From an uncultured Acidobacteriota bacterium (GTDB taxonomy: Bacteria > Acidobacteriota > Vicinamibacteria > Vicinamibacterales > 2-12-FULL-66-21): a stretch of DNA of 64,000 nucleotides. Numbering within the stretch: the stretch's first letter is position 1; the number at the start of each line of letters is the position of its first letter. Where the stretch lies: contig CAVSUB010000004.1 of the NCBI GenBank assembly GCA_963730995.1, positions 552,900 to 616,899 on the forward strand, given 5' to 3'. The translations under genes and the position numbers were made by a program. Below the pieces are notes generated by a model, which did no database searches, had not been told where the DNA came from, and worked only from the letters and a program-made list of their open reading frames with translations. Below are positions 199 through 53,924 of the stretch, piece by piece.

Positions 199-378
199 AT
201 GGCAGCAACTGACTGGGACGAGGAAACGTTCGAGGCGCATCGACCCCTGCTGTTCTCGATTGCGTACAGGATGCTCGGCAGCGCCAGCGAAGCCGAGGAT
301 GTCATGCAGGACGCGTGGCTCCGGGCGCTGACGAATCGAGCCACGCGGAGGACGAGCTGGGTTGAAGGTGGGATCCGC
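199..378 (+). pseudogene. ECF-type sigma-70 factor, 5' fragment only (region 2), truncated
   Basis: ORF 199..525 begins MAATDWDEETFEAHRPLLFSIAYRMLGSASEAEDVMQDAWLR, a sigma-70 region 2 signature of SigJ-like ECF factors. The resemblance stops around 335-378 and no region 4 appears in any frame. The opposite-strand cytochrome gene ends at 393. Confidence 0.55.
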
Positions 379-392
379 GGATCGTCGCGGTG

Positions 393-1754
393 TCAGGGTT
401 TTTCGATCTGCTTGTGGCAGTACTCGCAGTCCGAGCTGATCGAAGTGCCGTCCTTGGCCACGAGGCTGCCATCGTGGCAGCGGAAGCATCCGGACGACGT
501 TGTGTGTCCGAGGTTGTCCGGATAGGTGCCGAAGGTGACCTTCATCTCGGGAAACACGTTGCGCCGGTAGATGTTCTGCAGCGCGGCGACCGCACCCGTG
601 ACCTGGGCATCGGCGCGCGCCACGTGCGGTGTAGAACTTTCGCAAGTCTCCGTCGATCATCCGCGAGGCGTCGTCGTCGGTCGGGTAGCTCGCCTTCATG
701 AGGCGGACGCCTTCGCGACGGACGAACGGCAGGCCGCGGTCGATCCGGCCCGCCGCGATCGCCACATCCACCGCTTGCTCCGGCGCCGGGGCGACGCGAT
801 GCGCCGGGACGTTGTGGCAGTCGACACAGTCCATCGCGCGCCGGCTGCCGTTGGCGAGCTGTTCGGGCGTCGTCCCCTCGGCGGCGTACTCGCGGACGCG
901 GCCCTGCGCATCCGTGTCACTTGACGTACTGGATGGTCTGCCGCTCGGCGTCCGTGTAGGTGAATTCGATCTGCACGCGCGGATCGGCGTGCCAGTGGAT
1001 GGCGCGGCCGGCCGCGGTCGGCGCACCGGGACCGCCCACGAACAATCTGCAGGATGGTCGCCGTCTCCGTATTCGTCTCGTCGTCGGCGTACTCACGCTT
1101 GACGCGGACGACATCGCCGAATGCCTTGCCGGGCCAGTGACAGTTCCCGCAGACCTCAATCGCGGGACGCAGGTCGGCAACACCGGGAATCGGCCGCGGG
1201 TAGCCGCCCGTTACGACGTGATACAGCTGCCGCAGGCCGTTCATCTTGTACTTGACGAAGGCGCGGCCTCCTTCACCGATGTGGCATTGCACACACGTGA
1301 CCTGTGAGTGCGGCGCGTCCTGCCACGCGGTGAACTGCGGATGCATCGGCGTGTGGCACGTCTGGCCGCAGAACGAGGGGGACTCCATCGAGTGCAGCGA
1401 GCCGTAGCCCGCGACCAGCACGATCACGACGTTGAGGGCCGTCAACGCCGTGAACAGCACCGCCCTGCGGCGGGTCGTCGGCGACCTGAAGTCGATGACG
1501 AACCACTCCCGCTCCGAGCCCGGGTGCCGCAGCAGCCTGCGGCGCTCGAGCCACATCCCGAACGGAATGAGGAGCAGTCCGGCCACAAAGAGTGCCGGCA
1601 CCGCCACGAAGACGACGAGCGACGCGTACGGATTCTCGAAGAGGCCCAGCAGCTCGGCGACGAGCAGGGCGATGAACGCCACCGCCGACTCGCCGTGGCC
1701 AGCACGGCGCCCGACCAGCGAAGCTGGATGTCGGGCGAGGACGCGGTCTCGCAC
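393..1754 (-). pseudogene. membrane-anchored NapC/NirT-type multihaem cytochrome c (six haem sites), frame broken about 3 times as assembled
   Basis: Minus-strand pieces 696..1754, 917..1183, 172..1026 and 393..623 join into one protein. It has two N-terminal TM helices followed by CGQTCH, CVQCH, CGNCH, CVDCH, CFRCH and CEYCH. Frame switches lie near 1045, 925 and 615. Confidence 0.7.
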
Positions 1755-1762
1755 GAACCGCT

Positions 1763-2120
1763 CTACTTCAGGCTCTGCATGTAGGCGACGAGCGCGTCGA
1801 GGTCAGCCGCCGGCAGCTTGCCGTACTTCGCCGGCATGGGCGGCTTCTTGGTCGAGCTCGACTTCTTCGCCATCGCCACCGGATCGACGATCCATTGCCG
1901 GATGTCGTCGGCCGAGAGCTTCGCGCCTACGCCGTCGAGCGGGCTGCTCTTGCCGCCCTTGCCGGCGATGGAATGGCACATCGAACACTTCTGGGCAGCG
2001 TAGACCTCCTGCCCCTTTGGCTGCCGCATCCTGCGCTCGAGCCGGGCGTGGAACGCCGGTGACAAGCGCGAGCGTGATACCTGTGACGAACAGGCTGGCC
2101 TTCATGGTCACTCTCTGCAT
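1763..2120 (-). CDS. periplasmic monohaem class I cytochrome c (one frameshift in a C4 run at 2012-2015)
   Basis: The signal peptide MKASLFVTGITLALVTG lies in ORF 1803..2120. The mature part, with CSMCH and a distal Met, lies in ORF 1763..2065. The frames join at ...AAAKG/QEVYAAQKCSMCH. Confidence 0.7.
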
Positions 2121-2136
2121 TGTGTCTCCCCTTCCG

Positions 2137-2196
2137 CCGTGAAACTCACTGCCGTGAAACTCACCGCCGTGAAGCTCACCGCCGTGAAACTCACCA
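2137..2196. repeat. 4 x 15-bp tandem repeat (CCGTGAAACTCACYG)
   Basis: The units ccgtgaaactcactg / ccgtgaaactcaccg / ccgtgaagctcaccg / ccgtgaaactcacca were read directly. The array covers the porin stop codon and the spacer before the cytochrome c ribosome-binding site. Confidence 0.9.
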
Positions 2197-4416
2197 ATGA
2201 TACAGGAGGCCGATCACCACCGAGTGGGCGGTGTAGGGCCGGTACACGTAGCCCATGACCAGCGAGCTCGGCTGCGCGATGCCGTTGACCACGCTCGGAT
2301 CGAAGGCGAAGTCGTAGATGCTCAGCGGCTCGTACAGGTACGAGAACGAGCGCGGCGAGGCGGCTGGAGAGCCGGTACCGCACGTCGAGTGCAGCTGCTG
2401 CAGCTTGTTGAACACGTTGGGCAGCTGATTGGGCGTCGGTATCGGGCTGCCCGCCGGGATGGCGTAGAGGTAGTTCCCCTCTGCGTGGCTGAAGTCGTAC
2501 GAGAATCGGATGTCAGTGTTCTGCCCGATGCGAGGAGGGTTGGCGTAGATCGAGAAGTAGTGCACCGTCTCGGTCGAATCGGCGGTCCAGTCGCGCAGCG
2601 GATCGTTGAACTGGGCCGTGGACGAATCCCCCTCGTGCGAGCGCTGCAGTCCTTCGTAGCGCTCGTAGTTGTAGCTGCCGCCCGCGCCGAGCCCCTTGGG
2701 ACCGTGGTAATCGGCGGCCAGCGAGAAGGTGCGGCCGGTGGAATCCTGCAGGCCGTAGAAGCTGTTGTTGAAGTTGTCCTTGAGGACGCCGCCTGACACG
2801 CTGAACGTCCAGGCGTCGGACGGCACGATATCGGCCTGTGCCGTGAAGCGGTTCCTCGTGCGATCGGCGAGGTCGTAGTGGCGCATCTCGGGTTGCTCGC
2901 CAATCGCCGTCAGCTGCGTTTCGTCGAGCCCTGAACCGGTGCGATCGCCGTACTCGTATTGCGTCCGGAAGGTGAGCCACGAGGATCCGACGGCATCGGC
3001 CGACACGCGGAACACGTTCTCGCCGGCTCGACTCGATGATCCGCGCATCGTAGCCGTTCGCGTTGTGCGAGTAGCCGACCGTGACCGCGAATGGCATCAG
3101 TTTCGTCCACGTGGCGTCGCCGTCGAAGTTCGTCCGGCTGTGCGCGTAGAGGTCTGGACCGCCCGTGGGCGTCTCCGAGACCGAGCTAGTCGTAGCTGAC
3201 CATGTCCGTGATGGACGTGGCCGGCGTGAGGTTGTTGTAGGTGTAGTTGCGCACGCGCGCGCTGAACCGCCAGTCGGTCGACGGGTGCGAGTTGAGGCTC
3301 AGGTTGGTCGAGAAGACGTGCGCTTCCCCGTCGGTGTTCGCGCGGGGCAGCGCGATCACGCGGCAGCGCCGAGTTGATCGTGAAGGGCTGCAGCGGCTCG
3401 TCGTTGCTCCACAGTCCATAGGAGAAGGAGCCGGTCACCTGCGTCTTGTGCGCCAGCTTGGTGTACCCGCCGAAGCTGATGGTCTGGGCCGAGTTCGACG
3501 GCCAGAGGGACATGCGTCCGCGTCCCGGGTGCGCCGGACGCGTCGTCGAGGCGGAGCGGGCTGTCCCAGACCAGCGTCGGCGCGATGTTGTCGAACCAGG
3601 AGCCGCTGTAGGCGACACGCAGCATGTTGCGCGCGTTCGTCCACTCGGTGCCGATGGTGAGGTCGTTCGTGCGCGAGTCGTAGGGGAGCGGCACCTCGAC
3701 GTCGTTGCTGAAGCCGAAGCTGGCCCCCCAGGGCAGCTCGCCGCTGTGTTTCTGCGTGGTGAAGTTGGCCGTGACGTCGAGGTTCGGCTTCGGCGTCGCG
3801 ACCACGTCGAAACGGCCGATGTCGCGCCGCTCGCGCAGGTCGAACGCCGGCGCCAGCGGGACGTACAGGTTGAGTTTCGCCGGATCGCCGTTCTGGATCG
3901 CGCGCTGCGTCGCGTCGTCGAGCACCAGCGTGCCGCCGCTGCCCGTATACGGCGTCATCGTATCGACGCTGTAGAACTGCGGAATCTGCTGCCAGCTGCC
4001 GCTGAGCGACAGCTTGCCGATCCGCTCGTAACTCCCCATGAACTCCTGGTCGCGGTAGCCGACGTTCTCGGCGCGCGCGTGGAAGTCCCACGTACCGTCG
4101 GGCTTGGCGAACGAGTAGCGGAAGTTCGAGAACAGCAGCCCATCGCGCTGGTCCTGGTACCGCTGGTAGCGCGCCTGATCGCCGTCCACGCTCGTGAAGC
4201 GGCCCCCGATGAGGAATTCGCGCTCGGTCGGCTCGAAGAGACTGCGCGACGCGTCCTCGTCGGCCGCCGCGGGCTCGGCCGCGGCGGCTGCCGGCTGCCG
4301 GCCGGCTGGGTCTGAGTCGATGGGGACGCCGGCGGTTGGGCGGTTCCCTGTGCGAGTGCGGCACCTGGCGCGGCGAGGCCGAGCAGGGCGATCGTCGTGA
4401 TGGCGAATCGGCGCAT
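2191..4416 (-). pseudogene. MtrB/PioB-family outer-membrane beta-barrel (porin partner of a decahaem cytochrome), frame broken about 7 times as assembled
   Basis: The signal peptide is MRRFAITTIALLGLAAPGAALAQG (ORF 3955..4416). The body is spread over ORFs 3356..4420, 3097..3618, 3186..3419, 2513..3097 and 2191..3048. It shows alternating beta-strand patterns, an SWQQIPQFYS motif like the IPHxYS of PioB/MtrB, and an aromatic C-terminus ...LLYHW. It sits directly downstream of the decahaem gene. Confidence 0.65.
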
Positions 4417-4429
4417 ACAACGGCTCCGC

Positions 4430-5451
4430 TTACCGCATGAAGAACTGGCCCGATGGGTGATTCGAGCCGTGCACGTTCGAGTGGCAGTTCACGCACGATC
4501 TGCCGAACATCCGGTTGCTCTTGTTGGTGGTGATCTGGTCCTTGTCGTAGAGCGTCGCCGGGTGTTTGCTCGCGATGTGACAGCGCTGGCAGAGCATCGG
4601 CATGCGGACCACGAGCATCCGGTCGTTGGAGGATCCGTGCGGATCGTGGCAGGTCGCGCAGTTCTCGCGCACCGGCGCGTGCTCGAAGAGCATCGGTCCG
4701 CGCATCTCGGTGTGACAGCTCGTGCAGAACTCGGTGACGGAGCCGCCGGTCTTCAGGTTCTTGACGTTGGTCATCGAGCCGTGCGGGTTGTGGCACGAGC
4801 TGCAGGACATCTTGCCCTCGCGCACCGGCATGTGCGCGACCGCGCGTTCGGTCTTGGCCACCTGCAGCCGGTGACAGCCGACGCACACCTGCGTCTCGGT
4901 CGGCTTCACCAGCTGGGCCTGCATCGATTGCGGCGCGTGCACGCTGTGGCACGTGGTGCAGGTCAGGTTCCGCGCCGCATGAGCGCTGCCCTTCCCAGCC
5001 CGCGTGCGTGCCGCGGTTGTGGCAGGACAGACAGGTCTCGTTGACCTCGCTGGGCGTCAGGGCTTTGAACTTCTTGATGTGCCCCTTCGCGTCGTCGTCC
5101 ACGTGTGCCTGCCCTGGACCGTGGCAGCTTTCGCATCCGAGCGTGCCGGCGGGTGAACGCGGATCCTTGGCCTGGCCGTGGCGCGAGTGCGTGATGCTCT
5201 TTTCCTCCGGCTCGTGACAGAGCACGCAGGCGTCGGTGCCGGCGTAGCCCGGAGGCAGGTTGGTGGGCGTTGCCTGGGCAGGCGGTGTCTGGGCGGGCGT
5301 TGTCGCCGCGGGAGCTGTCCCCGCGCGGTGGCTGCTGCGCATCGACCAGGCGATCGGCCGTCACGCCGACCCACACGATCCACGCGATCAATCCGAGCCT
5401 GAAGAGAAGCGGATTCCGATTCACGCGTCGCGACCCGCGCGCAACTTTCAT
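4430..5451 (-). CDS. DmsE/MtrA/PioA-family periplasmic decahaem c-type cytochrome (two frameshifts as assembled)
   Basis: Signal peptide MKVARGSRRVNRNPLLFRLGLIAWIVWVGVTA, then ten CxxCH sites: CVLCH, CESCH, CLSCH, CTTCH, CVGCH, CSSCH, CTSCH, CATCH, CQRCH, CVNCH. The protein is about 340 aa once ORFs 4963..5511, 3435..5342 (first ~120 aa) and 4430..4942 are joined. The breaks lie at 5319-5322 (a C4 run) and near 4988. Confidence 0.8.
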
Positions 5452-5671
5452 ACCGCCGGTGGAGGCGCGACACCTGCCGGAATTCAGTGGCATTCTGTGA
5501 CTTCGCCGCACTCACGCCAAGGCGACCGGCTCCGATATTCCGTGACGGCTCCAACATACCGTAACCGCCGCGGGCCGTTTCACGAAGCAAATCGCGTCGA
5601 ATCAAAGACATCGCCCGGAACCCCAAGGCATGTTGCTTGCACTTGGGGTGGCTTCTCGAAAGGAACCGCCC

Positions 5672-8600
5672 ATGGAAGAACGGGACCGATCCTCCCGCCA
5701 GCAGCTCAATCGCCGTGACTGGCTGAAAGCCAGCATCGGCGGCGGCACCGGGCTCGCGCTCGGCGGCCTGCTCGACGTGCCGGCGGTAAGAGCGGCGGCG
5801 CAGGAACTTCAAGCTGGCGAACGTCAGCGAGTTCACGACGTCCTGCAACTTCTGCTCGTGCGGGTGCGGCATGGTCGCGTCGGTCCGGGACGGCAAGCTC
5901 CTGAGGATGGAGGGCGACTACGACCACATCGTGAATCGCGGGTCGCTGTGCGTCAAAGGCATTTCCATGTTCGCGACGCACACCTCCCCCAGCCGGCTCA
6001 CCACGCCGCGCTACCGCGCGCCGGGCAGCGACCACTGGGAGGACATCTCCTGGGACGACGCGATTAACCGGGTGGCGCAGAAGATCCGGAAGACGCGCGA
6101 CGAGACGTGGATCGCGACCGAGAAGGTGGATGCGCCTAAACTCGTCGTGGATTCCGCGGCGGGAGATCGGATCGAGAGCGCCCCGCGGTTCGTCCCTCAG
6201 GAGGGCGGCCCCGCAGAAGTGCCCGTCAATCGGACCGACGCGATCGGCTTCATGGGCGGCGCGCAGAACACGAACGAGGAGTGCTACCTCTTTCAGAAGG
6301 CGGCCCGGCTGCTCGGCATGCCCTATGTCGAACACCAGGCCCGACTTTGACATAGCCCCACGGTCCCCGGTCTGGGGGCCACATTCGGTCGAGGCGCGAT
6401 GACCAACCACTGGGTCGACTTGCAGAACTGCAAGACGATCCTCGTGGAAGGCAGCAACGTCGCCGAAAACCATCCCATGGCCTTCAAGTGGATCCGGAAG
6501 GCCCAGGAGAACGGGGCGACGATCATCCACGTCGATCCGCGGTTTACGCGGACCTCTTCGGCAGCCGACGTCTACGCGCGTATCCGGCCCGGCACCGACG
6601 CCGCGTTTCAGAACACGATGATCAGCCACATCATCGTGAACAAGCTGTACGACGAGGATTACGTCGTCACGCACACCAACGCCCTCTTTCTGGGCGACGA
6701 GGCATTCGACTTCAAGGACGGGCTCTTCAGCGGGTTCGACGCGGAGCACCACAAGTACGACACCAAAACCTGGGGATACCAGCTCGACCCGAAGGGCAAG
6801 CCGCGGATTGCCAAGAGCCTCGACGACCCGCACTGCGTGTTCTCGCGTCTGAAGACCTTCGTCTCGCGGTACACGCTGGAGATGGGCGAGCGCATCACTG
6901 GCATCCCTGCCGATCAGATTCGCCAGATCGCGGAGACGATGGCGAAGAACCGGCCGGGATCCATCCTGTATGCGCTCGGGATGACGCAGCACACGACGGG
7001 CGTGCAGGGCATCCGGGCGTTCACGATCCTGCAACTCCTGCTCGGCAACATCGGCAAGCCGGGCGGCGGCGTCAACGCGCTGCGCGGCGAGCCGAACGTG
7101 CAGGGCGCGTGCGACATGGCCGTGCTCTACAACTACATGCCGGGCTATCTCAACTCGGCGACCAATGCCGAGCCGACGATCTACCACTACGTGCGCAAGA
7201 ACGGGATCGCCGACAGCCGCTACCTGGTCAACACGCTCAAGGCCTTCTTCGGAGACGCCGCCACCAAGGAGAACGGCTACGCCTACGAGTGGCTGCCCAA
7301 GCGCGACGCCGCCAAGGACTACGGCACGCTGCCGATGTTCGAGGATGCGCTCGCCGGCAAACTGAAGATGCTCTGGATCGTCGGCCAGAACCCCGCGGTC
7401 ACGCTGCCCAACCTCAAGCTGACGTTCGATGCGATGGCGAAGCTCGAGACGCTCGTCGTCCAGGAGATCTGGGAAACGGAGACGGCGGCATTCTGGAAGC
7501 GTCCGGGCGTGGACCCGAAGTCGATCAACACCGAGGTGATCCTGCTGCCAGCGGCGTTCTTCATGGAGAAGAACGGCACCATCAGCAACTCGGGCGGCAT
7601 GGTGCAATGGCGCCACGCCGCCGTGAAGCCACCGGGACAGGCCAAGCCGGACGGCGAGATCGTGGACCTCGTGTTCCGCAAGGTCCGCGATCTCGTGAAG
7701 GACTCGACGGCGCCGCGCGACGAGATCATCAAGAAGGCGTTCTGGACCTACACCACGGCCGAGGACGTCCTGCGCGAGATCAACGGGTACGCCCTGCGCG
7801 ACAATCCGGAGACCGGCCTCAAGAAAGGCGACCTCATTCGCAAAGTCAGCGATCTGCGAGCCGACGGGTCCACCTCGTCGGGCGCCTGGATCTACGCGGG
7901 AGTGTTCGCGAACGGCGAGAACCTCTCGAAGCGTCGCGATTCGCAGACCGATCCCGGAGGCCTCGGCCTCTTCCCGGGCTTCGGGTGGACCTGGCCCAAC
8001 AACATGCGAATCCTTTACAACCGTGCCTCGTGCGACCGGGACGGCAAGCCGTATCCGGGGTCGAAACCGATCGTCTGGTGGGACGAGAAAGCGAAGCGCT
8101 GGACAGGGCATGACGTGCCGGACGTTCCTGTCGCGACTGACGGTCCCGACACGCCAAACGGCCAGCGGCCCTTCCACCTCGGCGCGGAGGGCGTCGGGCG
8201 CCTCTTCGCGGCCGTGTATTCGGACCCCGACCCCCGGTATACCGATTACTGGCGCGACGTGGCCTACGTGCCGAAGGACGGCCCGCTCCCGGAGATGTAC
8301 GAACCCATCGAAAGCCCGGTGGAAAACGTCCTTCACCCGGAGGTGAAGAGCAACCCGACGGTCAAGTATCCGCGCGTCCCGTCGCATCAGCCCATCGGCA
8401 CCGCCGAGAAGTACCCCTACGTGCTGATGACGTCGACCGTCGCCGAACACTGGTGCTGCGGCTCGACGACGCGAAACATTCCCTGGCTCAACGAGCTGAT
8501 TCCCGAACCGGTGCTCGAGCTGCCTGTCGTCCTCGCTCAGAAGCTCGACGTGAAATCGGGGGATTGGGTCCGCGTTTCGTCGGCGCGGGGTGAGCTCGAG

Positions 8601-8846
8601 GTCAAGGCCCTCGTCACGCCCCGCATGAAGGCGCTGAAAATCGGCGAGCAGGAGGTCACCGTCGTCTGGATGCCGTACAACTGGGGCTTCCAGGGGCTGT
8701 CGACCGGCCCGAGCGTCAACCACCTCACAATCGACGCCGCGGATCCCGGAGCGGGAACCCAGGAGAGCAAGGCCTGCCTCGTCAACGTCGTCAAGACCGG
8801 CCGCTCGGCCGCGCGAAGATCCGTCTCACCGAGGGGGCGCACATGA
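5672..8846 (+). CDS. fdnG: formate dehydrogenase catalytic subunit, FdnG-like, Tat-exported, selenocysteine at UGA 6348-6350; one frameshift near 5808
   Basis: Twin-arginine signal NRRDWLKASIGG and a 4Fe-4S motif CNFCSCGCG. The stretch VEHQARL-UGA-HSPTVPGLGATFGRGAMTNHW is colinear with E. coli FdnG NQARVUHGPTVASLAPTFGRGAMTNHW. ORFs 5871..6350 and 6399..8846 are in the same frame. Confidence 0.9.
6351..6395 (+). promoter_or_regulatory. candidate SECIS hairpin downstream of the Sec UGA
   Basis: CCCC-GGUC-U-GGGG at 6365-6378 could form a stem capped by a GGUC loop, as I recall for E. coli fdhF. It starts about 17 nt after the UGA. Not folded computationally. Confidence 0.5.
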
Positions 8847-11038
8847 CGTCGGAACCTTCCACGGGCCCGATCAGGGCGACGCTGATCGACATCGCCAACT
8901 GCATCGGCTGCCGGGCGTGCCAGGTGGCCTGCAAGCAGTGGAACGAGCGCGAGGGCGAGGACACCGAGCTCGAAGCTGACCTGGGGTTCCAGAACCCGGC
9001 GGTGCTCAGCGCGAAGACGTACACCCTCATCAAGTTCCTCGAGATGGAGAACCCGGCCAAGCCGGGCGGGCTGGATGCCAATTACGTGATGCAGCGGTGC
9101 CTCCATTGCCTGGAGCCGGCCTGCGTCTCCGCCTGCCCGACGACCGCGCTCCAGCGCCAACCCGACGGTCCGGTGTCGTACGACGCCGACGAGTGCATCG
9201 GCTGCCGCTACTGCATGCTGGCGTGTCCGTGGGACGTGCCGACCGCGGATTGGAATTCGCGCGCCCCGAAGATCTCGAAGTGCACGCATTGCGCCGACCG
9301 CGTCGCTCAGCCGGTGCCGATCGCGTTCAACGGACAGGCGTTGTCCGAGGACGCGGGTAAGCGGTTCGCCGACACCATCGCGGTTCCCGCCTGCGTCAAG
9401 GCGTGCCCCGCCGACGCCCTGCGCTACGGAACCCGGGACGAGATGCTGGCGCTCGCGCACAAGCGTATTGCGGACCGGCCCGACAAGTACGTCGACCACG
9501 TCTACGGAGAGAAGGAGCTGGGCGGGACGAGCGTGCTGTATCTGTCGAGAGTGCCGTTCGATAAGCTCGGCTTCCCGACGTATGGCGAGAAGCCCTTTCC
9601 GGCCTTCACCAAGACGGCGCTCGGCGCCGTTCCCCCCGCCGTGATGGCCGTCGGCGCCCTGCTCGGCGCCGCGTACGCCTCCTTCCGAAAACGGGTTCAG
9701 AAGGTGGCGGACGCCTCGGCTGCGTCGAAGCATTCCGAACACCACGGCCACGTCGAGTTCGAGCCTCTCCGGAAGGAGCTGATGACCCCCTTCAACTGGG
9801 TCCTCCTCCTGATCATGGCGTTTGGCGCCATCACGTTCGTCGCGCGGTTCGCTCTGGGGCTCGGCGGAAGCACGAACCTCTCCGACACATACCCGTGGGG
9901 CCTGTGGATCCTCTTCGACCTTGTGTGGATCGCGGTGGCCGCGGGCGCCTTCGTGCTGGCCGGCGTGATCTATGTCTTCCAGCGAAAGGACCTCTACGGG
10001 CTGGGGCGCACCGCCGTCCTGATGGGCCTCCTGAGCTACTCCTTCGTGACGGTCACTCTCGTCGCCGACCTCGGGCTGCCCTGGAACTCATACCAGCTCG
10101 CCCTCCAGGCTCCGGAGCACTCGGCGATGTTCGAGGTCTCGTGGTGTGTCGGCCTCTACGTCACGATCCTCCTGCTCGAGTTCCTGCCAGTGCCCTTCGA
10201 GCAATGGGGATTCCAGCGAGCCGCGGCGGTCTTGCGGAGATGGAACGGCGCCTACGTTGCGGCGGCGGTGACGCTCTTCGTCTACCTGATGTCGCGCAAC
10301 CTCCTCTACGCCCTCGCGACGGCCGTGGTCTTCGGCACCCTCGCCTGGATCTTCCGCGCGCGGGACCAGAAAGCCGAACCGATCATGCTCGCGATCGCCG
10401 CCGTCACGCTGTCGACCATGCACCAGAGCTCGCTCGGCTCCCTGTACCTGCTGATGCCGAACATGCTCGCCTCGCAGTGGTGGTCTCCCGTGATGCCCGT
10501 TTCCTTCTTCCTGTCGTCGATCGCGGCCGGAACCGCGCTCGTGATCCTCATCGACATGTGGATCTCGAAGGGGTGGCGCCGCCCGCTCGAGATCGCGCGG
10601 CTCGCCTCGGTCGGGCAGATCGCATTCTGGGCGCTGCTCGCCTACCTCGTGTTTCGCCTCGGCGACATGGCGATCCGCAACCAGCTCTCCGGCGCCTTCG
10701 CCGGAAGGCTCGGAATGGCCTTCGCGGCCGAGATTCTTCTCGGTGGCGTGCTTCCGCTCATCCTGCTGGCCCGCAAGTCGCTTCGGCAGCGTGCGGACGT
10801 GCTGTTCGTCGCGGCCCTCCTCACGGTCCTCGGCGTGGCGTACAACCGCATGAACGTCGTCCTCTTCGCGATGACTTTCCGGGGCCGGATGCCCTGGGGC
10901 GCACCGGAAGTGTACGCGCCGTCGATCGTCGAGTGGGGCGTGTCGATCGGCCTGATCGCCGCCACCATCTTCTTGTTCGGTCTCGGCGCGCGGCTGATGC
11001 CCGTGCTGTCAAAGAATGAAGTGGCGCACACCGCATGA
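8843..11038 (+). CDS. formate dehydrogenase Fe-S subunit (FdnH/HybA-like, four 4Fe-4S motifs) fused to an NrfD/PsrC-like polytopic membrane domain
   Basis: N-terminal motifs CIGCRACQVACK, CLHCLEPACVSACP, CIGCRYCMLACP and CTHC..., then a TM anchor. These are followed by about 430 aa of repeated TM helices typical of NrfD-type quinone-interacting subunits. The start overlaps the fdnG stop (ATGA). Confidence 0.8.
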   Translation: MTSEPSTGPIRATLIDIANCIGCRACQVACKQWNEREGEDTELEADLGFQNPAVLSAKTYTLIKFLEMENPAKPGGLDANYVMQRCLHCLEPACVSACPTTALQRQPDGPVSYDADECIGCRYCMLACPWDVPTADWNSRAPKISKCTHCADRVAQPVPIAFNGQALSEDAGKRFADTIAVPACVKACPADALRYGTRDEMLALAHKRIADRPDKYVDHVYGEKELGGTSVLYLSRVPFDKLGFPTYGEKPFPAFTKTALGAVPPAVMAVGALLGAAYASFRKRVQKVADASAASKHSEHHGHVEFEPLRKELMTPFNWVLLLIMAFGAITFVARFALGLGGSTNLSDTYPWGLWILFDLVWIAVAAGAFVLAGVIYVFQRKDLYGLGRTAVLMGLLSYSFVTVTLVADLGLPWNSYQLALQAPEHSAMFEVSWCVGLYVTILLLEFLPVPFEQWGFQRAAAVLRRWNGAYVAAAVTLFVYLMSRNLLYALATAVVFGTLAWIFRARDQKAEPIMLAIAAVTLSTMHQSSLGSLYLLMPNMLASQWWSPVMPVSFFLSSIAAGTALVILIDMWISKGWRRPLEIARLASVGQIAFWALLAYLVFRLGDMAIRNQLSGAFAGRLGMAFAAEILLGGVLPLILLARKSLRQRADVLFVAALLTVLGVAYNRMNVVLFAMTFRGRMPWGAPEVYAPSIVEWGVSIGLIAATIFLFGLGARLMPVLSKNEVAHTA

Positions 11039-11817
11039 CCCGGGACGTGTGGCTGGCGCGGCATCCCTACCTGCAGCCGGTCGCGGACGTGCAATCGCTC
11101 GTCGAAGCGGCGGCAGACGGGATTGCCGTCCCCAGCGCGCCGACCCCCGACTGGGAGCATTACGCCGCGGACTTTCACGCGGGCATGCCGTTGCTGCGGA
11201 GCTCCACGGTTGCGTTCGACTTCAGCGCGGTCGAAACGGCCGTTCACTCGCTTATCAGGAGTCTTGCGTCGGCTTCATTGCCGGAACCGCTGGCGGCACC
11301 GTGCCGGGACCTCGAAGCGGAGATCGAGACGACGGATTCGCGCTCGCCGGGGCATCCCGGACTGCTCCACTACCTGGGATGGGTAGTCCTGGTTCGTTAC
11401 CTGGCACCGGTCGTCAGCGCCTTCGATGCGTGGCGGGACGAGGAGCAGTGGCTCCGCAACTATTGCCCGATGTGCGGCGAGCCGCCGACGATGGCGCAGC
11501 TGGTGGGGAAGGATCCGGGCCGCATGCGCATGCTGTCGTGCGGCCGCTGCCGCACCCGCTGGCGCTACAGCCGCACCGCTTGTCCGTTCTGCGACGCGCA
11601 GGGCGAACATCGTCTGGCAGTGGTGGCGGTCGAAGGCGAGGCGGGATTGCGCATCGACTACTGCGACGGGTGTAGCGGCTATCTCAAGACCTACGACGGC
11701 GAGGGGAGCGAGAGCGTCCTGCTCGCCGACTGGACGTCACTCCACCTCGACATGATTGCCCGCGATCGCGGCCTCAAGCGGCTGGCTGCGTCGCTCTACG
11801 ATCTCGACGCGCGCTAG
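11035..11817 (+). CDS. fdhE: formate dehydrogenase accessory protein FdhE
   Basis: Paired Cys motifs CPMCGE..., CGRCRTRW, CPFCD and YCDGCSGYLK are characteristic of FdhE. The start overlaps the upstream stop (ATGA). Confidence 0.85.
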   Translation: MTRDVWLARHPYLQPVADVQSLVEAAADGIAVPSAPTPDWEHYAADFHAGMPLLRSSTVAFDFSAVETAVHSLIRSLASASLPEPLAAPCRDLEAEIETTDSRSPGHPGLLHYLGWVVLVRYLAPVVSAFDAWRDEEQWLRNYCPMCGEPPTMAQLVGKDPGRMRMLSCGRCRTRWRYSRTACPFCDAQGEHRLAVVAVEGEAGLRIDYCDGCSGYLKTYDGEGSESVLLADWTSLHLDMIARDRGLKRLAASLYDLDAR

Positions 11818-12051
11818 ACCGCTCGCCCGATCGCGCGCGCCCCGCAAACAGGCTCCGCTTTTCAGATCTCCTTCAGCGCAACGAGCCGCGCCCGATCAGC
11901 TGACAGCTGACGGCGAGAGCCGCTCAGGCGTAGGCATCGGTCACATTCCTCCCTCGCGGTCCGTCATGCTGGTGACGGACCACTGGTGATAGCTTCTTCC
12001 TCACAAAAGCACGAACTTCCGCTTCGGGCTCCGTCTTCTGAGGAGGTCCCA

Positions 12052-17114: not shown

Positions 17115-18254
17115 ATGCACGTGCGCCGCGCCTTCGCTTCTGCAACGGTTCTCGCCACGGCGATGTTGGCGTGGTCGTCAGCCACGTTCGCACAAGGCGG
17201 GGCGCCCCAGGCACCGCCCGCAGGTCAGGGCCGTGGTGGCGGGGGAGTGGCGTTCGGACCGCCCACCGACAAGACGCCCTATGACGACTACACGGGCTTC
17301 ACGAAGATCTTCGACGGCAAGACGTTCACGAACTGGCTGGGCGAGACGGACGTGTGGTCCATTCAGGACGGCACGCTCCACGCCGACACGACCAAGACGC
17401 CGGGGCAGCATCACATCCATTACGTCGGGCCCGGTGCGGTGATGCGTGACTTCACACTCAAGGTCGAGGTGAAACTCTCCGCGACTGGCGCCAATGGCGG
17501 CGTCCAATACCGCAGCCGGCTCCTCCACCCAGCACACGGCGGGTCGATCGCCGATCCGCTCGGCAAGCCGCTGCCCGCCAACGTGACGACGATGGATCAG
17601 GCGGTGGCGGCGGGGATCACGTCCGCGCCCGCCCCGCGGGGCGGGGGCCCGGGTGCCGCGGGAGGCCGAGGGGGCGCGCCGGGTGCGGGCCCCGGCGGCG
17701 CTCCGGGCGGAGGCGCTCGCCCGGGCGGTCCCGGCGCCACGTCCCCTCCTGACGCGAATGCCTGCGTCGGAGAAGTCGGCCGCCTCAGACCCGCAGCGCC
17801 GTCTGCGGCACAAGGGACCGCGCCCGGTGCTGCGCCGACCGGGAATCCCTGGCAGGTGAGCGGCTACCAGTTCGACATGGATTCGGCCAACCAATACACC
17901 GGTCAACTCTATGAAGGTCAGGGACGCAACATCATCACGTCGCCCGGCACGATCGGCATGCTGCTGCCGGGCGCCTGCAAGATTCTGCTCGGCACGATCA
18001 ATCCCGATCCGAAGTCGGCCGTGAAGCCGCATCAGGGACTCGACGGCGAGTGGCAGCAGATCGAAATCATCGCCCGCGGCAACACGCTGGTCCACATCAT
18101 CAACGGCCAGGTCATGTCGGTCACGATCGACGACGACCCGTCAGCGCGCGCGCCGCAGGGCATCCTGTCACTGCAGCTCGAGGGCAGTGGTCAGATCTGG
18201 TATCGCAACGTCTACCTCAAAGCGATCGACAAGCCGCTGGAATTCCCGCGTTGA
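17115..18254 (+). CDS. DUF1080 (3-keto-disaccharide hydrolase-like) domain protein with a Gly/Pro/Ala-rich insert
   Basis: Signal peptide, then FDGKTFTNWLGETDVWSIQDGTLHAD. The C-terminal part reads WQQIEIIARGNTLVHIINGQVM...GILSLQLEGSGQIWYRNVYLK. A low-complexity insert lies at about 17610-17850. Confidence 0.7.
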   Translation: MHVRRAFASATVLATAMLAWSSATFAQGGAPQAPPAGQGRGGGGVAFGPPTDKTPYDDYTGFTKIFDGKTFTNWLGETDVWSIQDGTLHADTTKTPGQHHIHYVGPGAVMRDFTLKVEVKLSATGANGGVQYRSRLLHPAHGGSIADPLGKPLPANVTTMDQAVAAGITSAPAPRGGGPGAAGGRGGAPGAGPGGAPGGGARPGGPGATSPPDANACVGEVGRLRPAAPSAAQGTAPGAAPTGNPWQVSGYQFDMDSANQYTGQLYEGQGRNIITSPGTIGMLLPGACKILLGTINPDPKSAVKPHQGLDGEWQQIEIIARGNTLVHIINGQVMSVTIDDDPSARAPQGILSLQLEGSGQIWYRNVYLKAIDKPLEFPR

Positions 18255-18299
18255 GCCAATCGGTCGCCGCGATGTTCAGGCGTGAGCACGCGGCGGCCG

Positions 18300-20086
18300 C
18301 TACGCCGCCGGTGCCCCCGGCACCTGAAGTGCGTGCGCACCCACTCTTCGAATCGATCGCACATCGCCGCTTCGCCGTCGCTCGTGTCGGCCAGCAGCGC
18401 GTCGCCGTGCACGATACGGATGTGCGCATCGAGTGACGCCGGCACGATCTCGGGATAGTGGCGTGTGGCCGCGGCGCGCATCGACGACTCGGCACGCGCG
18501 CAGGCCTCTTCCGCGCTGGCGTTGCAGTCTTCGGCCAGATGCCGGGCAGAGAAGCCTTCGCCGGTCAGGCTGCGGAGCATCTGGTTGTGATCGACGCTGT
18601 TGCCCGGCTCCCAGTAGTGGGCGGCGAGCGTCGGCCCAATCGCCGGGTTGTCGGTCAGATAGCCCGACCTCGCCCAGCAGGTGCGCGCGCGTCTGCGCGA
18701 CCGCCATGTACGCGAGCAGGTATCCCTGATACGACGCGGCCGATTCCTGATTGAGCAGATGCGGAATCGCCAGGAGCGGCCGGGGGCTTTCGACGCCGAG
18801 CACTCGCACCTCCGTCTCCCGCGCCAGCGCCAGCACGCGCTCCGGGGTGAGGTCGTCGTCTGCCATCTGATACAGCGCGGACTCGAAGTACGGGACGACG
18901 GCGATCGAGCGGGCGTCGAAGGCGCGCATCGGTTGGCTGCTGGCGATGCGGTCCAGGATGAGCGACGGCTGGAATCGGCTGCCCGTCAGCGGACGCGGCA
19001 TAGCGCATCATCCAGTCTGCATCCGACAGCAGCTGGTCGCAGAACATCGACTGCGTTTCCGCGTAGGCCATCGACGTCGGCGGGTACTCCTGCGAGAAGC
19101 AGGGCGAGTTCTGGACCACGTTGGCGAAATGCGCGGCGTGGCCGCCTTCGTGGAACAGCGTGTTGATGGCGCGGAGGCCGCTGCCGACCTGATCCGGTTT
19201 CGCCTCCGCGGTGAAGTTGATCGCGGCAGGCACCCAGCGCCCGGTCTCGGTGATCCAGCTCGGCACCGGTCCGTGGCAGAACCCGTTCTGATGCTTGCCC
19301 GGACGCTCGAGCAGGTCCAGCTGCATCGTCGCACCCCGAAACTGGATCCCGAGCCGGCGGAAGCTGTCGATCCAGCGACGCAGCGCGAGTCCGAAGGGCA
19401 GGTACGGGTCGAGCCGGCGGATGACGTCGCCGGATGCATGGAACCGCAGATTCCAGGGCGCGGTGGCGGCTGCACCGTGACGCGTGCGAAGGTCCGAGAG
19501 GGCGCGTGCGTTGGCCGCGTCGGTCTGCCGGACGAAGTCGTCGAGCAGATGCAGCAGCGCCGGCGTCTGCCATGCGCTCGTTCTTCTGCAGCTTCAGGTC
19601 GAAGTAGTTTTCGTAGCCGAGCGCGCGGGCAAAGCGGTTGCGGAGGCGGACCAGCTCCAGGAACCCGTGATCGAGGACCCACCGTTCGATGTCGCGGAAG
19701 GCGTCGAATGAGCTCTTTCGCCGCTCTTCGACGCGATTGGTCGCCAGGTTGGTGGCCAGCATCGGCAGCGAGGCGACTTCCCACTCTCCCTGGTCGTTCA
19801 GATGCCGCGGCTCGTGTGCACGCTTGCGCTCGAACAGGACGGATTCGGCATCGACGATCTCGCGCATGAGCGTGCGGCCGTCCGGGCTGTCGATGATGTT
19901 GGCTTCGAACAGCGCCAGCCATCCGCCGAGGCCATGCAGCAGGGCGTCGCGCTCGGCGCCCGGCGGAGCCGCCCGGACAGCCGCCAGCTCGTCGCGGGTT
20001 TTCGTCAGCTTGGCAGGATCTCCGATGAATTCCTTATAGGCGCCCTCGGCGCGCGCGAAGGCGGCGTGGTCGTCGCTCGTGGCCAT
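18300..20086 (-). pseudogene. M3-family oligoendopeptidase, frame broken about 4 times as assembled
   Basis: ORFs 18986..20086, 18655..19326 (with HEGGH zinc motif FHEGGHAAHF), 18300..19001 and 18212..18580 join into one colinear protein of about 590 aa. The breaks lie near 19562, 19005, 18662 and 18320, the last in a G5/C5 run. Confidence 0.7.
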
Positions 20087-20246
20087 GTAGGTCGCCCAGA
20101 ACAGATCCTCTTTGGTCTCTGTGCACGGCGACGTAGGCGTGGTTCAGGTAGTCGAAGTACTCTCGCGCGCTCTGCATGTCTGCGATCGTATCTCCGTCCA
20201 CGTTCGCGTCACAGTCTAGGTGGACAGGAATGGATCTCAGGTGCTT

Positions 20247-26067: not shown

Positions 26068-26222
26068 CGGCCCCGCCCATCACTCGTCCTTAGGAATCCT
26101 CCGAAACGGCCCGTTGGGCGGCAAGCCCCGGAGCGCTTTCGGACCCGCTCGTTCGGACTCATGCACCCTTGCGATCTCTCGACCGGGCCGCTGGGCAGGG
26201 GCGCTATTCTTATGGACGGAAC

Positions 26223-52393: not shown

Positions 52394-53655
<1,262 letters not shown>

Positions 53656-53666
53656 AACTGCTCCGC

Positions 53667-53924
53667 CTACATGTTGTCGATGATAAGACACTGGTGGGAG
53701 CCCGGCGCCGATCCATGCCGATTTGCTCTCAGGAACTCGTCGAGGTCAGTCGCCAAATACCTGATTGCGCGCCCAAGCCGTACGGATGCTGGGCCTTTGC
53801 TCCGATGCCGCCACGCTCGAAGGGTAGCAACCTTCAGTCCGAGTCTGGCCGCGGCATCGGCCTCTGTGAGCGCTTGGTTGCTGGCGTTCAGCACCACTGG
53901 TTCTGCATTTTCGAGGGATGTCAT
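53667..53924 (-). CDS. excisionase/AlpA-like helix-turn-helix protein
   Basis: The protein reads MTSLENAEPVVLNASNQALTEADAAARLGLKVATLRAWRHRSKGPASVRLGRAIRYLATDLDEFL. The ribosome-binding site is GAGAGGA. Confidence 0.7.
   Translation of the reverse strand: MTSLENAEPVVLNASNQALTEADAAARLGLKVATLRAWRHRSKGPASVRLGRAIRYLATDLDEFLRANRHGSAPGSHQCLIIDNM

What the first reader, a model, noticed from the sequence alone, without database searches (positions are those of the whole stretch)
393..5451. Four-gene porin-cytochrome electron conduit (decahaem + MtrB/PioB porin + monohaem c + NapC/NirT-type hexahaem) in an Acidobacteria-like context
Four co-oriented genes lie on the minus strand with 8-13 nt spacers:
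- a periplasmic decahaem cytochrome of about 340 aa with exactly ten CxxCH sites (DmsE/MtrA/PioA size and layout);
- a beta-barrel of about 740 aa ending ...LLYHW, with an IPQFYS block like PioB/MtrB;
- a small class I cytochrome c (CSMCH);
- an inner-membrane cytochrome with two TM helices and six haem sites of NapC/NirT type, a CymA-like quinol dehydrogenase role.

These are the same four parts I recall for the mtoDAB-cymA cluster of the Fe(II) oxidiser Sideroxydans. They are functionally equivalent to MtrAB/CymA of Shewanella and PioAB of Rhodopseudomonas. Such conduits are best known in Proteobacteria. The first haem site of the membrane cytochrome reads CGQTCH (CX3CH), which is unusual.
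Basis: partly seen in the sequence, partly recalled or inferred. Interest (0 to 1): 0.75.

Follow-up and report, generated by a model that had tools for sequence, protein, structure and literature searches.

The report
Soil Acidobacteria outer-membrane electron conduit genes
The four genes really do encode an MtrA/MtrB-type electron conduit across the outer membrane plus two partner cytochromes, but this cluster is common in soil Vicinamibacterales, is already auto-annotated as such, and its broken reading frames look like assembly errors.

Summary
Window 393-5451 (minus strand) holds four co-oriented genes:
- a DmsE/MtrA-family decahaem cytochrome with ten CXXCH;
- an MtrB/PioB barrel;
- a class I monohaem cytochrome c;
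- a six-haem inner-membrane cytochrome.

The first two pass NCBI's curated HMM cut-offs once the frames are repaired. About 17 frameshifts break the genes. At least 12 are single extra bases, and 95-100% identical contigs from four unrelated metagenomes lack them. Intact proteins 91-97% identical exist. An unrelated peptidase gene in the window carries three frame breaks of the same sense (one base to skip). The shifts are therefore most likely assembly errors, not gene death.

It has three transmembrane helices, a conserved CX3CH site and five CXXCH sites, which is the published ImcH architecture. The small cytochrome is a likely His/Met type, not MtoD-like.

The same gene order occurs in 60 of 72 related loci, all but three labelled Vicinamibacterales, Vicinamibacteria or Acidobacteriota MAGs. 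A selenocysteine formate dehydrogenase cluster adjoins it in 14 of 83 loci.

The direction of electron flow is unresolved; I favour outward flow, from quinol to extracellular acceptors. Verdict: a new member of a known kind, of modest interest.

The parts
4430..5451 (-). mtrA-like gene: periplasmic DmsE/MtrA-family decahaem cytochrome c. 339 aa after repair, ten CXXCH, N-terminal signal-like segment. Broken by single extra bases near 5325 and 4988.
   Evidence: TIGR03508 scores 253.5 bits against a cut-off of 192.2. Match to MtrA in the solved Mtr complex 6R2Q_A at E = 1.1e-66. Frame repair. Both extra bases are absent from metagenome contigs.
2191..4416 (-). mtrB/pioB-like gene: outer-membrane beta-barrel porin, 741 aa after repair. 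Frame breaks at about 4290-4313 (13 nt missing in a Pro/Ala-rich linker), 3520-3529, 3360, 3189, 3028, 2389 (1 nt missing) and 2352.
   Evidence: PF11854 scores 295 bits over profile positions 3-635 of 635, and TIGR03509 scores 254.4 against 240.05. Sequence match to 6R2Q_B at E = 5e-12. An AlphaFold model of the 91%-identical intact homologue P0241 is nearly all strand, and its best fold match is 6R2Q_B at E = 1.4e-22. Frameshifts.
2134..2195 (-). 15-nt tandem repeat (GGTGAGTTTCACGGC x 4.1). It starts at the mtrB stop codon and fills most of the mtrB to cytochrome c spacer.
   Evidence: Tandem Repeats Finder score 110. Sequence read. Four matches in the window against 0.17 expected. Found elsewhere only in the close relative L001.
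1763..2120 (-). Class I monohaem cytochrome c: about 118 aa, signal-like N-terminus, CSMCH, and a KKPPMP motif typical of a Met sixth ligand. One extra base at 2010.
   Evidence: PF00034 at E = 1e-11 and PF13442 at E = 1e-9. Best solved relatives are CcoP-type domains; there is no MtoD match at E <= 0.01. The extra base is absent from contigs of three metagenomes.
393..1754 (-). ImcH-type inner-membrane cytochrome: 452 aa after repair, three transmembrane helices, CX3CH (FCGQTCHTPM) next to helix 3, then five CXXCH. Extra bases at 1713, 1687, 1684, 1047, 918 and about 617.
   Evidence: Motif positions and hydrophobic segments. Spacing equals that of published ImcH homologues. All 120 listed homologues have one CX3CH plus five CXXCH. 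The intact JGI protein P0121 is 97% identical. Only helix 3 and the first three haem sites resemble NrfH/NapC. Extra bases are absent from metagenome contigs.
5672..8846 (+). Divergently oriented fdhA: periplasmic formate dehydrogenase-N alpha subunit. It has a twin-arginine signal and an in-frame TGA (selenocysteine position) at 6348-6350. One extra base near 5807 separates the signal from the enzyme.
   Evidence: TIGR01553 scores 1024.8 bits against a cut-off of 814.2. Translation. The extra base is absent from contigs. Codon third positions diverge about 10 times faster than first and second positions against L001.
8843..11038 (+). Fusion of a four-cluster iron-sulfur subunit (HybA/HmcB/FdhB-like) with an NrfD/HybB-type membrane quinone-interacting domain. 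Intact, 731 aa.
   Evidence: Best NCBIfam matches are HmcB, HybA and FDH-beta over residues 12-293, and the Ni/Fe-hydrogenase cytochrome b subunit and HmcC over residues 306-723. All are below their equivalog cut-offs.
11035..11817 (+). fdhE-like accessory gene, 260 aa.
   Evidence: TIGR01562 FdhE at E = 2.8e-17, below its cut-off. The Pfam family FdhE_central is recorded for the homologues.

Best explanation
What it is: a Vicinamibacterales (Acidobacteriota) operon for a two-component outer-membrane porin-cytochrome conduit.
- An MtrA-like decahaem cytochrome is threaded through an MtrB-like barrel.
- The conduit is wired to the quinone pool by an ImcH-type membrane cytochrome (three helices, six haems).
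- A periplasmic class I monohaem cytochrome c sits between them.
- There is no MtrC-like surface cytochrome.

Frameshifts: the roughly 17 frameshifts are most likely consensus errors of the source assembly, so the genes are probably intact in the organism.

Proposed working, which is inferred and not shown:
1. Quinol is made by dehydrogenases such as the adjacent selenocysteine formate dehydrogenase.
2. The ImcH-type protein oxidises the quinol at the periplasmic face.
3. Electrons pass through the periplasm, by way of or alongside the monohaem cytochrome, to the decahaem.
4. They cross the outer membrane along its ten-haem chain.
5. They reduce soluble or chelated Fe(III), Mn(III/IV) or humic quinones at the cell surface.

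Identity of the parts is well supported (about 0.9). The outward direction is only a preference (about 0.5).
For: Identity:
- Curated HMM cut-offs are passed by the decahaem and the barrel.
- Both match the solved Mtr complex 6R2Q, chain A at E = 1e-66 and chain B at E = 5e-12.
- The modelled barrel's best fold match is 6R2Q_B at E = 1.4e-22, against 7e-7 for the next hit.
- ImcH architecture: three helices, CX3CH and five CXXCH at spacings 25/48/107/113/20. The Solibacter ImcH homologue listed in PMC6295460 has 24/49/102/117/20.

Module:
- The gene order is conserved in 60 of 72 loci, and all four genes are present in 66 of 72.

Frames:
- At least 12 single extra bases are absent from every covering contig that is 95-100% identical, in four independent metagenomes. 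Two further sites (about 3520 and 4988) are absent from only part of the covering depth.
- Intact proteins 97% (P0121) and 91% (P0241) identical exist.
- There is no in-frame stop after repair.
- An M3 peptidase gene at 18.3-20.1 kb shows three frame breaks of the same sense, inferred from its translations.
- fdhA carries the same kind of shift yet shows strong third-position bias.

Outward flow:
- ImcH has been implicated only in quinol oxidation so far (PMC6295460).
- A quinone-reducing formate dehydrogenase adjoins the cluster in 14 of 83 loci in three different arrangements.
- Genes resembling pyruvate:ferredoxin oxidoreductase, phosphotransacetylase and acetate kinase recur beside it in other loci.
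Against: - No function has been tested in any Vicinamibacterales.
- A probably high-potential His/Met cytochrome c between a quinol oxidase and a low-potential MtrA-type chain is awkward for outward flow. It fits the Mto model of Fe(II) oxidation better, since MtoA haems span +30 to -350 mV.
- Lack of an MtrC-type surface cytochrome is typical of Fe(II) oxidisers (no other multihaem ORF in the 64 kb).
- Formate dehydrogenase adjacency holds in only about 17% of loci.
- The source reads could not be found (best word share 0.42), so the frameshifts are not directly disproved.
- Three shifts are shared with the related assembly L001.
- The 13-nt gap in the mtrB linker could be real.
- The frameshifts are strongly clustered in 0.6-5.9 kb, and I can explain that only by inference.
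Confidence: 0.5

Rival explanations
1. Same hardware, opposite direction. The conduit takes electrons from extracellular Fe(II) or another reduced donor. It passes them through the decahaem to the His/Met cytochrome c and on to a cbb3/aa3 oxidase. The ImcH-type protein feeds some electrons into the quinone pool. This is the MtoAB-MtoD-CymA / PioAB logic.
For: - The conduit has two components and no MtrC-like partner, as in MtoAB/PioAB.
- A class I monohaem cytochrome is conserved inside the operon in 60 of 72 loci.
- Its proline-rich Met motif suggests a potential above that reported for MtoA-type haems, which would make decahaem to cytochrome c transfer downhill.
- Cultured Vicinamibacterales are aerobes, and Luteitalea pratensis has a cbb3 oxidase (PMC5900883).
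Against: - ImcH homologues had been found only in Fe(III) reducers and implicated only in quinol oxidation.
- The organisms are described as heterotrophs.
- Neighbours, where informative, are a quinone-reducing formate dehydrogenase and fermentative or anaerobic genes.
- No Cyc2, HiPIP or carbon-fixation genes were seen in the window.
Confidence: 0.3
2. The cluster is a genuinely decayed set of pseudogenes in this strain. The frameshifts are real mutations.
For: - About 17 frame breaks fall within 5.3 kb, while the next 6 kb is intact.
- Three shifts are shared with the related assembly L001.
- A truncated sigma-factor gene abuts the cluster, and synteny with L001 ends at 392.
- First and second codon positions differ from L001 relatively more in these genes than in fdhA.
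Against: - At least 12 of the roughly 17 lesions are single-base insertions, not the mixed, deletion-biased spectrum expected of bacterial pseudogenes (general knowledge).
- There are no premature stops in the repaired frames, and all haem motifs are kept.
- Contigs 95-100% identical lack the insertions.
- Frame breaks of the same sense hit a peptidase gene and the fdhA signal peptide, and fdhA is under clear purifying selection.
- L001 shows the same kind of single-base insertions spread over 11 kb.
Confidence: 0.08
3. The conduit serves a non-metal extracellular or periplasmic reaction. One example would be electron delivery to a surface reductase, as DmsEF does for DMSO reductase. Another would be redox balancing with soluble shuttles only.
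For: - The best NCBI family for the decahaem is named after DmsE.
- PMC13264449 notes that such clusters may relate to DMSO-type metabolism.
Against: - No DmsAB-type reductase lies next to the cluster. The only molybdoenzyme nearby passes the formate dehydrogenase-N equivalog cut-off.
- No surface reductase was seen in the fetched loci. They were screened only for the seven reference proteins and by ORF clustering.
Confidence: 0.1

Closest known systems
MtrAB of the Shewanella MtrCAB complex (structure 6R2Q)
   Same: - A decahaem cytochrome with ten CXXCH that aligns end to end with MtrA (E = 1e-66).
- A large barrel whose sequence (E = 5e-12) and model (E = 1.4e-22, TM 0.52-0.58) match MtrB.
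- The two genes are adjacent and in the same order.
   Different: - No MtrC/OmcA-type extracellular decahaem lies in the cluster or anywhere in the 64 kb window.
- The inner-membrane partner is of the ImcH type, not CymA.
- The periplasmic partner is a monohaem class I cytochrome, not the tetrahaem STC/FccA (the latter from general knowledge).
mtoD-mtoA-mtoB-cymA cluster of Sideroxydans lithotrophicus ES-1 (and PioAB of Rhodopseudomonas)
   Same: Four functionally equivalent parts in one cluster, with no surface cytochrome (PMC4412085):
- a decahaem cytochrome;
- a porin;
- a small monohaem cytochrome c;
- a membrane multihaem cytochrome that interacts with quinones.
   Different: - The small cytochrome has a PPMP Met-ligand motif and no detectable similarity to the solved MtoD at E <= 0.01. 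MtoD is bis-His and lacks the proline-rich loop.
- The membrane cytochrome has three helices and six haems with CX3CH, where CymA has one helix and four haems.
- The gene order differs.
- The host is a heterotrophic Acidobacteriota lineage.
ImcH of Geobacter sulfurreducens and its homologues
   Same: Three N-terminal transmembrane helices, an atypical CX3CH right after the third helix, further CXXCH sites, and NapC/NirT-like similarity limited to helix 3 and the first haems. The motif spacing equals that of the six-motif homologue of Solibacter usitatus listed in PMC6295460.
   Different: - Six haem sites where Geobacter ImcH has seven.
- It lies directly in an operon with mtrAB-like genes. 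The 2018 survey found this for no imcH. A 2026 MAG survey mentions ImcH- or NapC/NirT-like genes beside small decahaem-porin pairs (PMC13264449).
- Direct sequence comparison with Geobacter ImcH could not be made here.

Membership tests
DmsE/MtrA family decahaem c-type cytochrome (TIGR03508) | Scores above the curated whole-protein cut-off of the family model | tested here: met
   253.5 bits against a cut-off of 192.2, over profile positions 1-258 of 258.
DmsE/MtrA family decahaem c-type cytochrome (TIGR03508) | Ten CXXCH haem-binding sites in a protein of about 300-350 aa | tested here: met
   Ten CXXCH in the 339-aa repaired protein. 115 of the 120 listed homologues also have ten.
DmsE/MtrA family decahaem c-type cytochrome (TIGR03508) | Encoded next to an MtrB/PioB-type barrel gene | tested here: met
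   A 13-nt spacer to the barrel gene. The two are adjacent wherever the fetched sequence reaches the barrel gene: 79 of 83 loci, the other four being contigs that end before it.
MtrB/PioB decahaem-associated outer-membrane protein (TIGR03509 / PF11854) | Scores above the curated cut-offs over the full length of the models | tested here: met
   TIGR03509 scores 254.4 against 240.05. PF11854 scores 295.4 against 23, over profile positions 3-635 of 635.
MtrB/PioB decahaem-associated outer-membrane protein (TIGR03509 / PF11854) | Large (about 26-strand) beta-barrel fold like MtrB | tested here: met
   The model is of the 91%-identical intact homologue P0241: mean pLDDT 65.8, pTM 0.60, about 26-28 long strands. 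Its best fold match is 6R2Q_B at E = 1.4e-22 and TM 0.52/0.58; the next hit is at 7e-7.
ImcH family inner-membrane cytochrome | Three N-terminal transmembrane helices, an atypical CX3CH next to the third, then 5-9 CXXCH (as defined in PMC6295460) | tested here: met
   Hydrophobic segments at 11-42, 41-70 and 96-121. CGQTCH at residue 129 and five CXXCH. Spacing 25/48/107/113/20 against 24/49/102/117/20 in Solibacter Acid_0432. The pattern is conserved in 120 of 120 homologues.
ImcH family inner-membrane cytochrome | Significant sequence similarity to Geobacter sulfurreducens ImcH (GSU3259) | not tested
   No reference ImcH sequence could be obtained. No ImcH model matched in the Pfam or NCBIfam scans, and no solved structure other than NrfH matched.
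CymA (NapC/NirT tetrahaem quinol dehydrogenase) | One N-terminal transmembrane helix and four CXXCH in about 190 aa | tested here: not met
   452 aa, three helices and six haem sites. The NapC/NirT and NrfH models match only residues about 97-206 and score below the NrfH cut-off (52.4 against 134.2).
MtoD (Sideroxydans periplasmic monohaem shuttle) | Sequence relatedness to MtoD, bis-His ligation, and no proline-rich distal loop | tested here: not met
   The solved MtoD is not among the matches at E <= 0.01. The window protein has a KKPPMP motif. MtoD's features are taken from PMC4412085. The ligation itself cannot be tested here.
MtrCAB three-component conduit | An MtrC/OmcA-type extracellular decahaem gene in the cluster | tested here: not met
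   No other ORF with more than one CXXCH exists in the 64 kb window outside the cluster. None was seen in the related loci, which were screened only with the seven reference proteins.
Formate dehydrogenase-N alpha subunit (TIGR01553), for the neighbouring gene | Equivalog model cut-off passed, selenocysteine or cysteine at the active site, and a twin-arginine signal | tested here: met
   1024.8 bits against 814.2. In-frame TGA at 6348-6350 within ...HQARL-U-HSPTV, and an RRDWLK signal.

The most novel reading that the evidence does not exclude
Vicinamibacterales carry, almost order-wide, a hybrid electron-export or electron-import module. It joins a Shewanella-type MtrAB outer conduit to a Geobacter-type ImcH membrane cytochrome through a His/Met monohaem cytochrome, and it is often placed beside a selenocysteine formate dehydrogenase. 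The 2018 survey of such systems did not see this wiring. If it is active, members of a common soil bacterial order would be unrecognised players in soil iron, manganese or humic redox cycling.
Probability: 0.45. Interest if true: 0.55.

Novelty: new member of a known kind. Interest (0 to 1): 0.33.

Why it matters
Vicinamibacterales MAGs are frequent in soil, rhizosphere and mine metagenomes. The word search found runs of all three kinds holding about 40% of this stretch's words. Their isolates are described as aerobic heterotrophs (PMC5900883).

A conserved, complete route from the quinone pool to the cell surface would give these bacteria a way to respire Fe(III), Mn(IV) or humic substances during anoxic spells, or to draw electrons from Fe(II). 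It would also add a large, uncounted population to soil metal-cycling budgets.

The operon is also a natural example of an ImcH-type cytochrome paired with an MtrAB-type conduit, which helps in understanding how these modules are mixed.

For this particular window the main practical lesson is a caution. The broken frames are probably an assembly artefact and should not be read as gene decay.

Tried and rejected
- Plain tblastn with intact homologues merged frames into long low-identity alignments and could not place the shifts. I replaced it with my own frameshift-aware protein-DNA alignment.
- Two GC3-phase heuristics for mapping frameshifts over the whole window were too noisy to use.
- The search for the source reads failed. 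The best run holds only 0.42 of the sampled words, so near-identical metagenome contigs were used instead.
- The hypothesis that the errors arise because the cluster is unusually conserved among co-occurring strains is only partly consistent. The cluster is closer to L001 (third-position differences 3-6%) than the fdh genes are (11-13%). However, fdhA has higher metagenome depth and no errors beyond its 5' end.
- The MtoD relationship was rejected, and the CymA relationship was rejected.
- The 15-nt repeat was sought in the 84 loci fetched by then as a possible conserved regulatory site. It occurs only in L001.
- The ImcH biochemistry paper (PMC10601379) is not held.
- A phylogeny against MtoA, PioA, MtrA and DmsE was not possible, because only MtrA (from the PDB) was available as a reference.
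- The promoter and terminator scans gave nothing above chance.

Full report
**Observation**

Window 393-5451 carries, on the minus strand, four co-oriented genes. None is a single open reading frame: each is spread over two or three frames. I aligned intact homologous proteins to the DNA with a frameshift-aware alignment. This gave four products:
- a 339-aa cytochrome with exactly ten CXXCH (4430-5451);
- a 741-aa protein ending LLYHW and containing IPQFYS (2191-4416);
- a cytochrome c of about 118 aa with CSMCH (1763-2120);
- a 452-aa cytochrome with CGQTCH plus five CXXCH (393-1754).

The spacers are 13 nt, about 70 nt and 8 nt. The middle spacer holds a 15-nt x 4 tandem repeat.

**Identity of the parts**

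- The decahaem cytochrome passes NCBI's curated cut-off for the DmsE family (253.5 bits against 192.2). The barrel passes the cut-off for the MtrB/PioB family (254.4 against 240.05; Pfam PF11854 gives 295 bits over the whole model).
- Against solved structures, the decahaem aligns with MtrA of the Mtr complex (6R2Q_A, E = 1e-66) and the barrel with MtrB (6R2Q_B, E = 5e-12).
- I modelled an intact homologue that is 91% identical (P0241). The model is almost entirely long beta-strands (pLDDT 65.8, pTM 0.60). Its best fold match is MtrB at E = 1.4e-22, against 7e-7 for the next hit.

**The membrane cytochrome is ImcH-type, not CymA-type**

- It has three hydrophobic helices.
- A CX3CH site lies directly after the third helix, followed by five CXXCH. 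Motif spacings are 25/48/107/113/20.
- Zhong and Shi (PMC6295460) define ImcH homologues by exactly these features. Their supplementary table lists a six-motif homologue in Solibacter usitatus with spacings 24/49/102/117/20 and three helices.
- All 120 listed homologues of the window protein keep FCGQxCHxPM plus five CXXCH.
- NapC/NirT and NrfH similarity covers only helix 3 and the first three haem sites, and is below the NrfH cut-off. The same is reported for ImcH.
- I could not compare it directly with Geobacter ImcH, so membership rests on architecture.

**The small cytochrome**

It is an ordinary class I domain (PF00034, PF13442). Its closest solved relatives are CcoP domains, and there is no match to MtoD at E <= 0.01. 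It has the proline-rich KKPPMP motif typical of His/Met ligation, whereas MtoD is bis-His and lacks that loop. Any likeness to MtoD is therefore functional at most.

**Frameshifts**

I count about 17 frame breaks between 617 and 5807.
- Most are single extra bases in the window: about 617, 918, 1047, 1684, 1687, 1713, 2010, 2352, 3028, 3189, 3360, about 3520, 4988, 5325, and 5807 in the fdhA signal peptide.
- There is one missing base near 2389 and a 13-nt gap in the Pro/Ala-rich linker of the barrel (4290-4313).
- The source reads could not be found; the best run holds only 0.42 of the sampled words.
- Short-read-derived contigs of four unrelated soil and mine metagenomes, 95-100% identical to the window, lack the extra base at each listed site. 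For 12 sites this holds at all of the covering depth. At about 3520 and 4988 it holds for part of the depth, and the change at about 617 could equally be two missing bases.
- Intact proteins 97% (ImcH-type, P0121) and 91% (barrel, P0241) identical exist. The intact JGI contig L085 shows the same set of window-only bases.
- The repaired frames have no stop codons and keep every haem motif.
- The same kind of lesion is not confined to this cluster. An M3 peptidase gene at about 18.3-20.1 kb changes frame three times in the same sense. The related assembly L001 carries more than 30 single-base insertions spread over 11 kb, including in fdh genes that are intact in the window.
- Three shifts (918, 4988, about 5800) are shared by the window and L001. 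However, fdhA, which carries one of them, shows a tenfold excess of third-position differences between the two. It is therefore under selection, and that shift cannot be an old real mutation.
- A lesion spectrum this dominated by single-base insertions is also unlike natural pseudogene decay, which is deletion-biased (general knowledge).

I conclude that the shifts are most likely consensus errors (about 0.9). I cannot explain with evidence why they are so concentrated in the first 5.9 kb. A mosaic or low-coverage stretch of the contig is my inference. It is supported only by two observations: this stretch has lower divergence from L001, and there is a synteny break with a truncated sigma-factor gene at about 392.

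**Distribution and context**

- The first protein search returned 7,571 proteins at E <= 1e-20. The 120 listed are 68-87% identical. JGI names them DmsE family, and the one NCBI-named hit is labelled Vicinamibacterales.
- One scan of species-representative genomes found 340 relatives. Of the best 80, all but three are labelled Vicinamibacterales, Vicinamibacteria or Acidobacteriota MAGs, many from one long-read MAG series.
- Of 72 loci with enough flanking sequence, 60 have the same four genes in the same order, and 66 have all four.
- The divergently placed neighbour in the window is a selenocysteine formate dehydrogenase-N alpha subunit (1025 bits against a cut-off of 814). It is followed by an iron-sulfur/NrfD-type fusion protein and an FdhE-like gene.
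- This fdh cluster adjoins the conduit genes in 14 of 83 loci, in divergent, convergent and co-directional arrangements.
- In other loci, genes that look like pyruvate:ferredoxin oxidoreductase, phosphotransacetylase and acetate kinase recur nearby. I judged these by eye and did not confirm them with profiles.
- No MtrC-like or other multihaem gene exists elsewhere in the 64 kb.

**Mechanism**

Shown: the parts and their conserved linkage.

Inferred:
- The decahaem sits inside the barrel and spans the outer membrane, as in 6R2Q.
- The ImcH-type protein exchanges electrons with the quinone pool at the periplasmic face. The positive-inside rule places its haem domain in the periplasm.
- The monohaem cytochrome acts in the periplasm.

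Direction is open. I favour outward flow, from quinol to extracellular Fe(III), Mn(III/IV) or humics, for three reasons. ImcH is so far implicated only in quinol oxidation. The recurring neighbours supply quinol or belong to anaerobic metabolism. The hosts are heterotrophs.

The main rival, at about 0.3, is inward flow as in MtoAB/PioAB. It is supported by the lack of a surface cytochrome and by a probably high-potential His/Met cytochrome conserved inside the operon.

**Comparison and novelty**

- Candidate mtrA/mtrB homologues in Acidobacteria, including the subdivision 6 isolate Luteitalea pratensis, were noted in 2018 (PMC5900883).
- PioA/PioB homologues in Acidobacteria were noted in 2023 (PMC10654088).
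- A 2026 MAG study describes small decahaem plus porin pairs, most with an ImcH- or NapC/NirT-like gene. The paper does not give the phyla of that group, but most of its cluster-bearing MAGs are Gammaproteobacteria or Acidobacteriota (PMC13264449).
- The 2018 survey of quinol oxidases found no mtrAB next to any imcH. The pairing is therefore a recent and little-studied observation, but not new here.

The window adds one more, error-ridden, instance of a family that annotation pipelines already name. It is a new member of a known kind. The biology of the family remains untested and is of moderate interest for soil redox cycling.

**What led nowhere**

This is listed in the separate field.

Noticed in passing
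window 5672-11817 (+): A formate dehydrogenase cluster lies divergent to the conduit genes. fdhA has an in-frame TGA (selenocysteine position) at 6348-6350 and a twin-arginine signal. It is followed by an unusual fusion of the iron-sulfur subunit with an NrfD/HybB-type membrane domain (731 aa), then an fdhE-like gene. The cluster adjoins the conduit genes in 14 of 83 related loci, in three arrangements.
   Followed up: partly
window 2134-2195 (-): A 15-nt tandem repeat (GGTGAGTTTCACGGC x 4) starts at the mtrB stop codon and ends about 15 nt before the cytochrome c start. It occurs elsewhere only in the 95%-identical relative L001, where its length differs. Its function is unknown.
   Followed up: partly
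window 199-392 (+): The N-terminal 45 or so residues of a SigJ-like ECF sigma factor (TIGR02957, E = 4e-15) break off where the ImcH-type gene ends. Synteny with L001 also stops at 392. This is either a rearrangement junction or a chimeric join in the assembly.
   Followed up: partly
window about 18250-20140 (-): An M3-family peptidase gene (HEGGH motif) is split over three frames by three successive frame breaks (0 to 1 to 2 to 0). Each takes one skipped base to mend, the same sense as in the cytochrome cluster. This was judged from the translations, with one Pfam hit to the middle fragment.
   Followed up: partly
window 392-11822 versus L001: The conduit genes differ from L001 at 3-6% of third codon positions, whereas the adjacent fdh genes differ at 11-13%. 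This suggests recombination or a mosaic consensus. Three frameshifts (918, 4988, about 5800) are shared by the two assemblies.
   Followed up: partly
loci L083, L022, L033, L054, L067, L073 and others (flanks of the conduit genes): In up to 19 of the 84 loci fetched by then, ORFs recur beside the cluster that look like pyruvate:ferredoxin oxidoreductase, a dihydroorotate-dehydrogenase-like protein, phosphotransacetylase, acetate kinase, glycogen phosphorylase and a debranching enzyme. They were recognised by eye only.
   Followed up: no
window 26169-28193 (+), 31566-33992 (+), 52408-53691 (-): Three unrelated genes:
- a cytochrome c domain fused to a glucose/sorbosone dehydrogenase domain;
- a full-length phosphoketolase;
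- a phage-type integrase.
All are intact.
   Followed up: no
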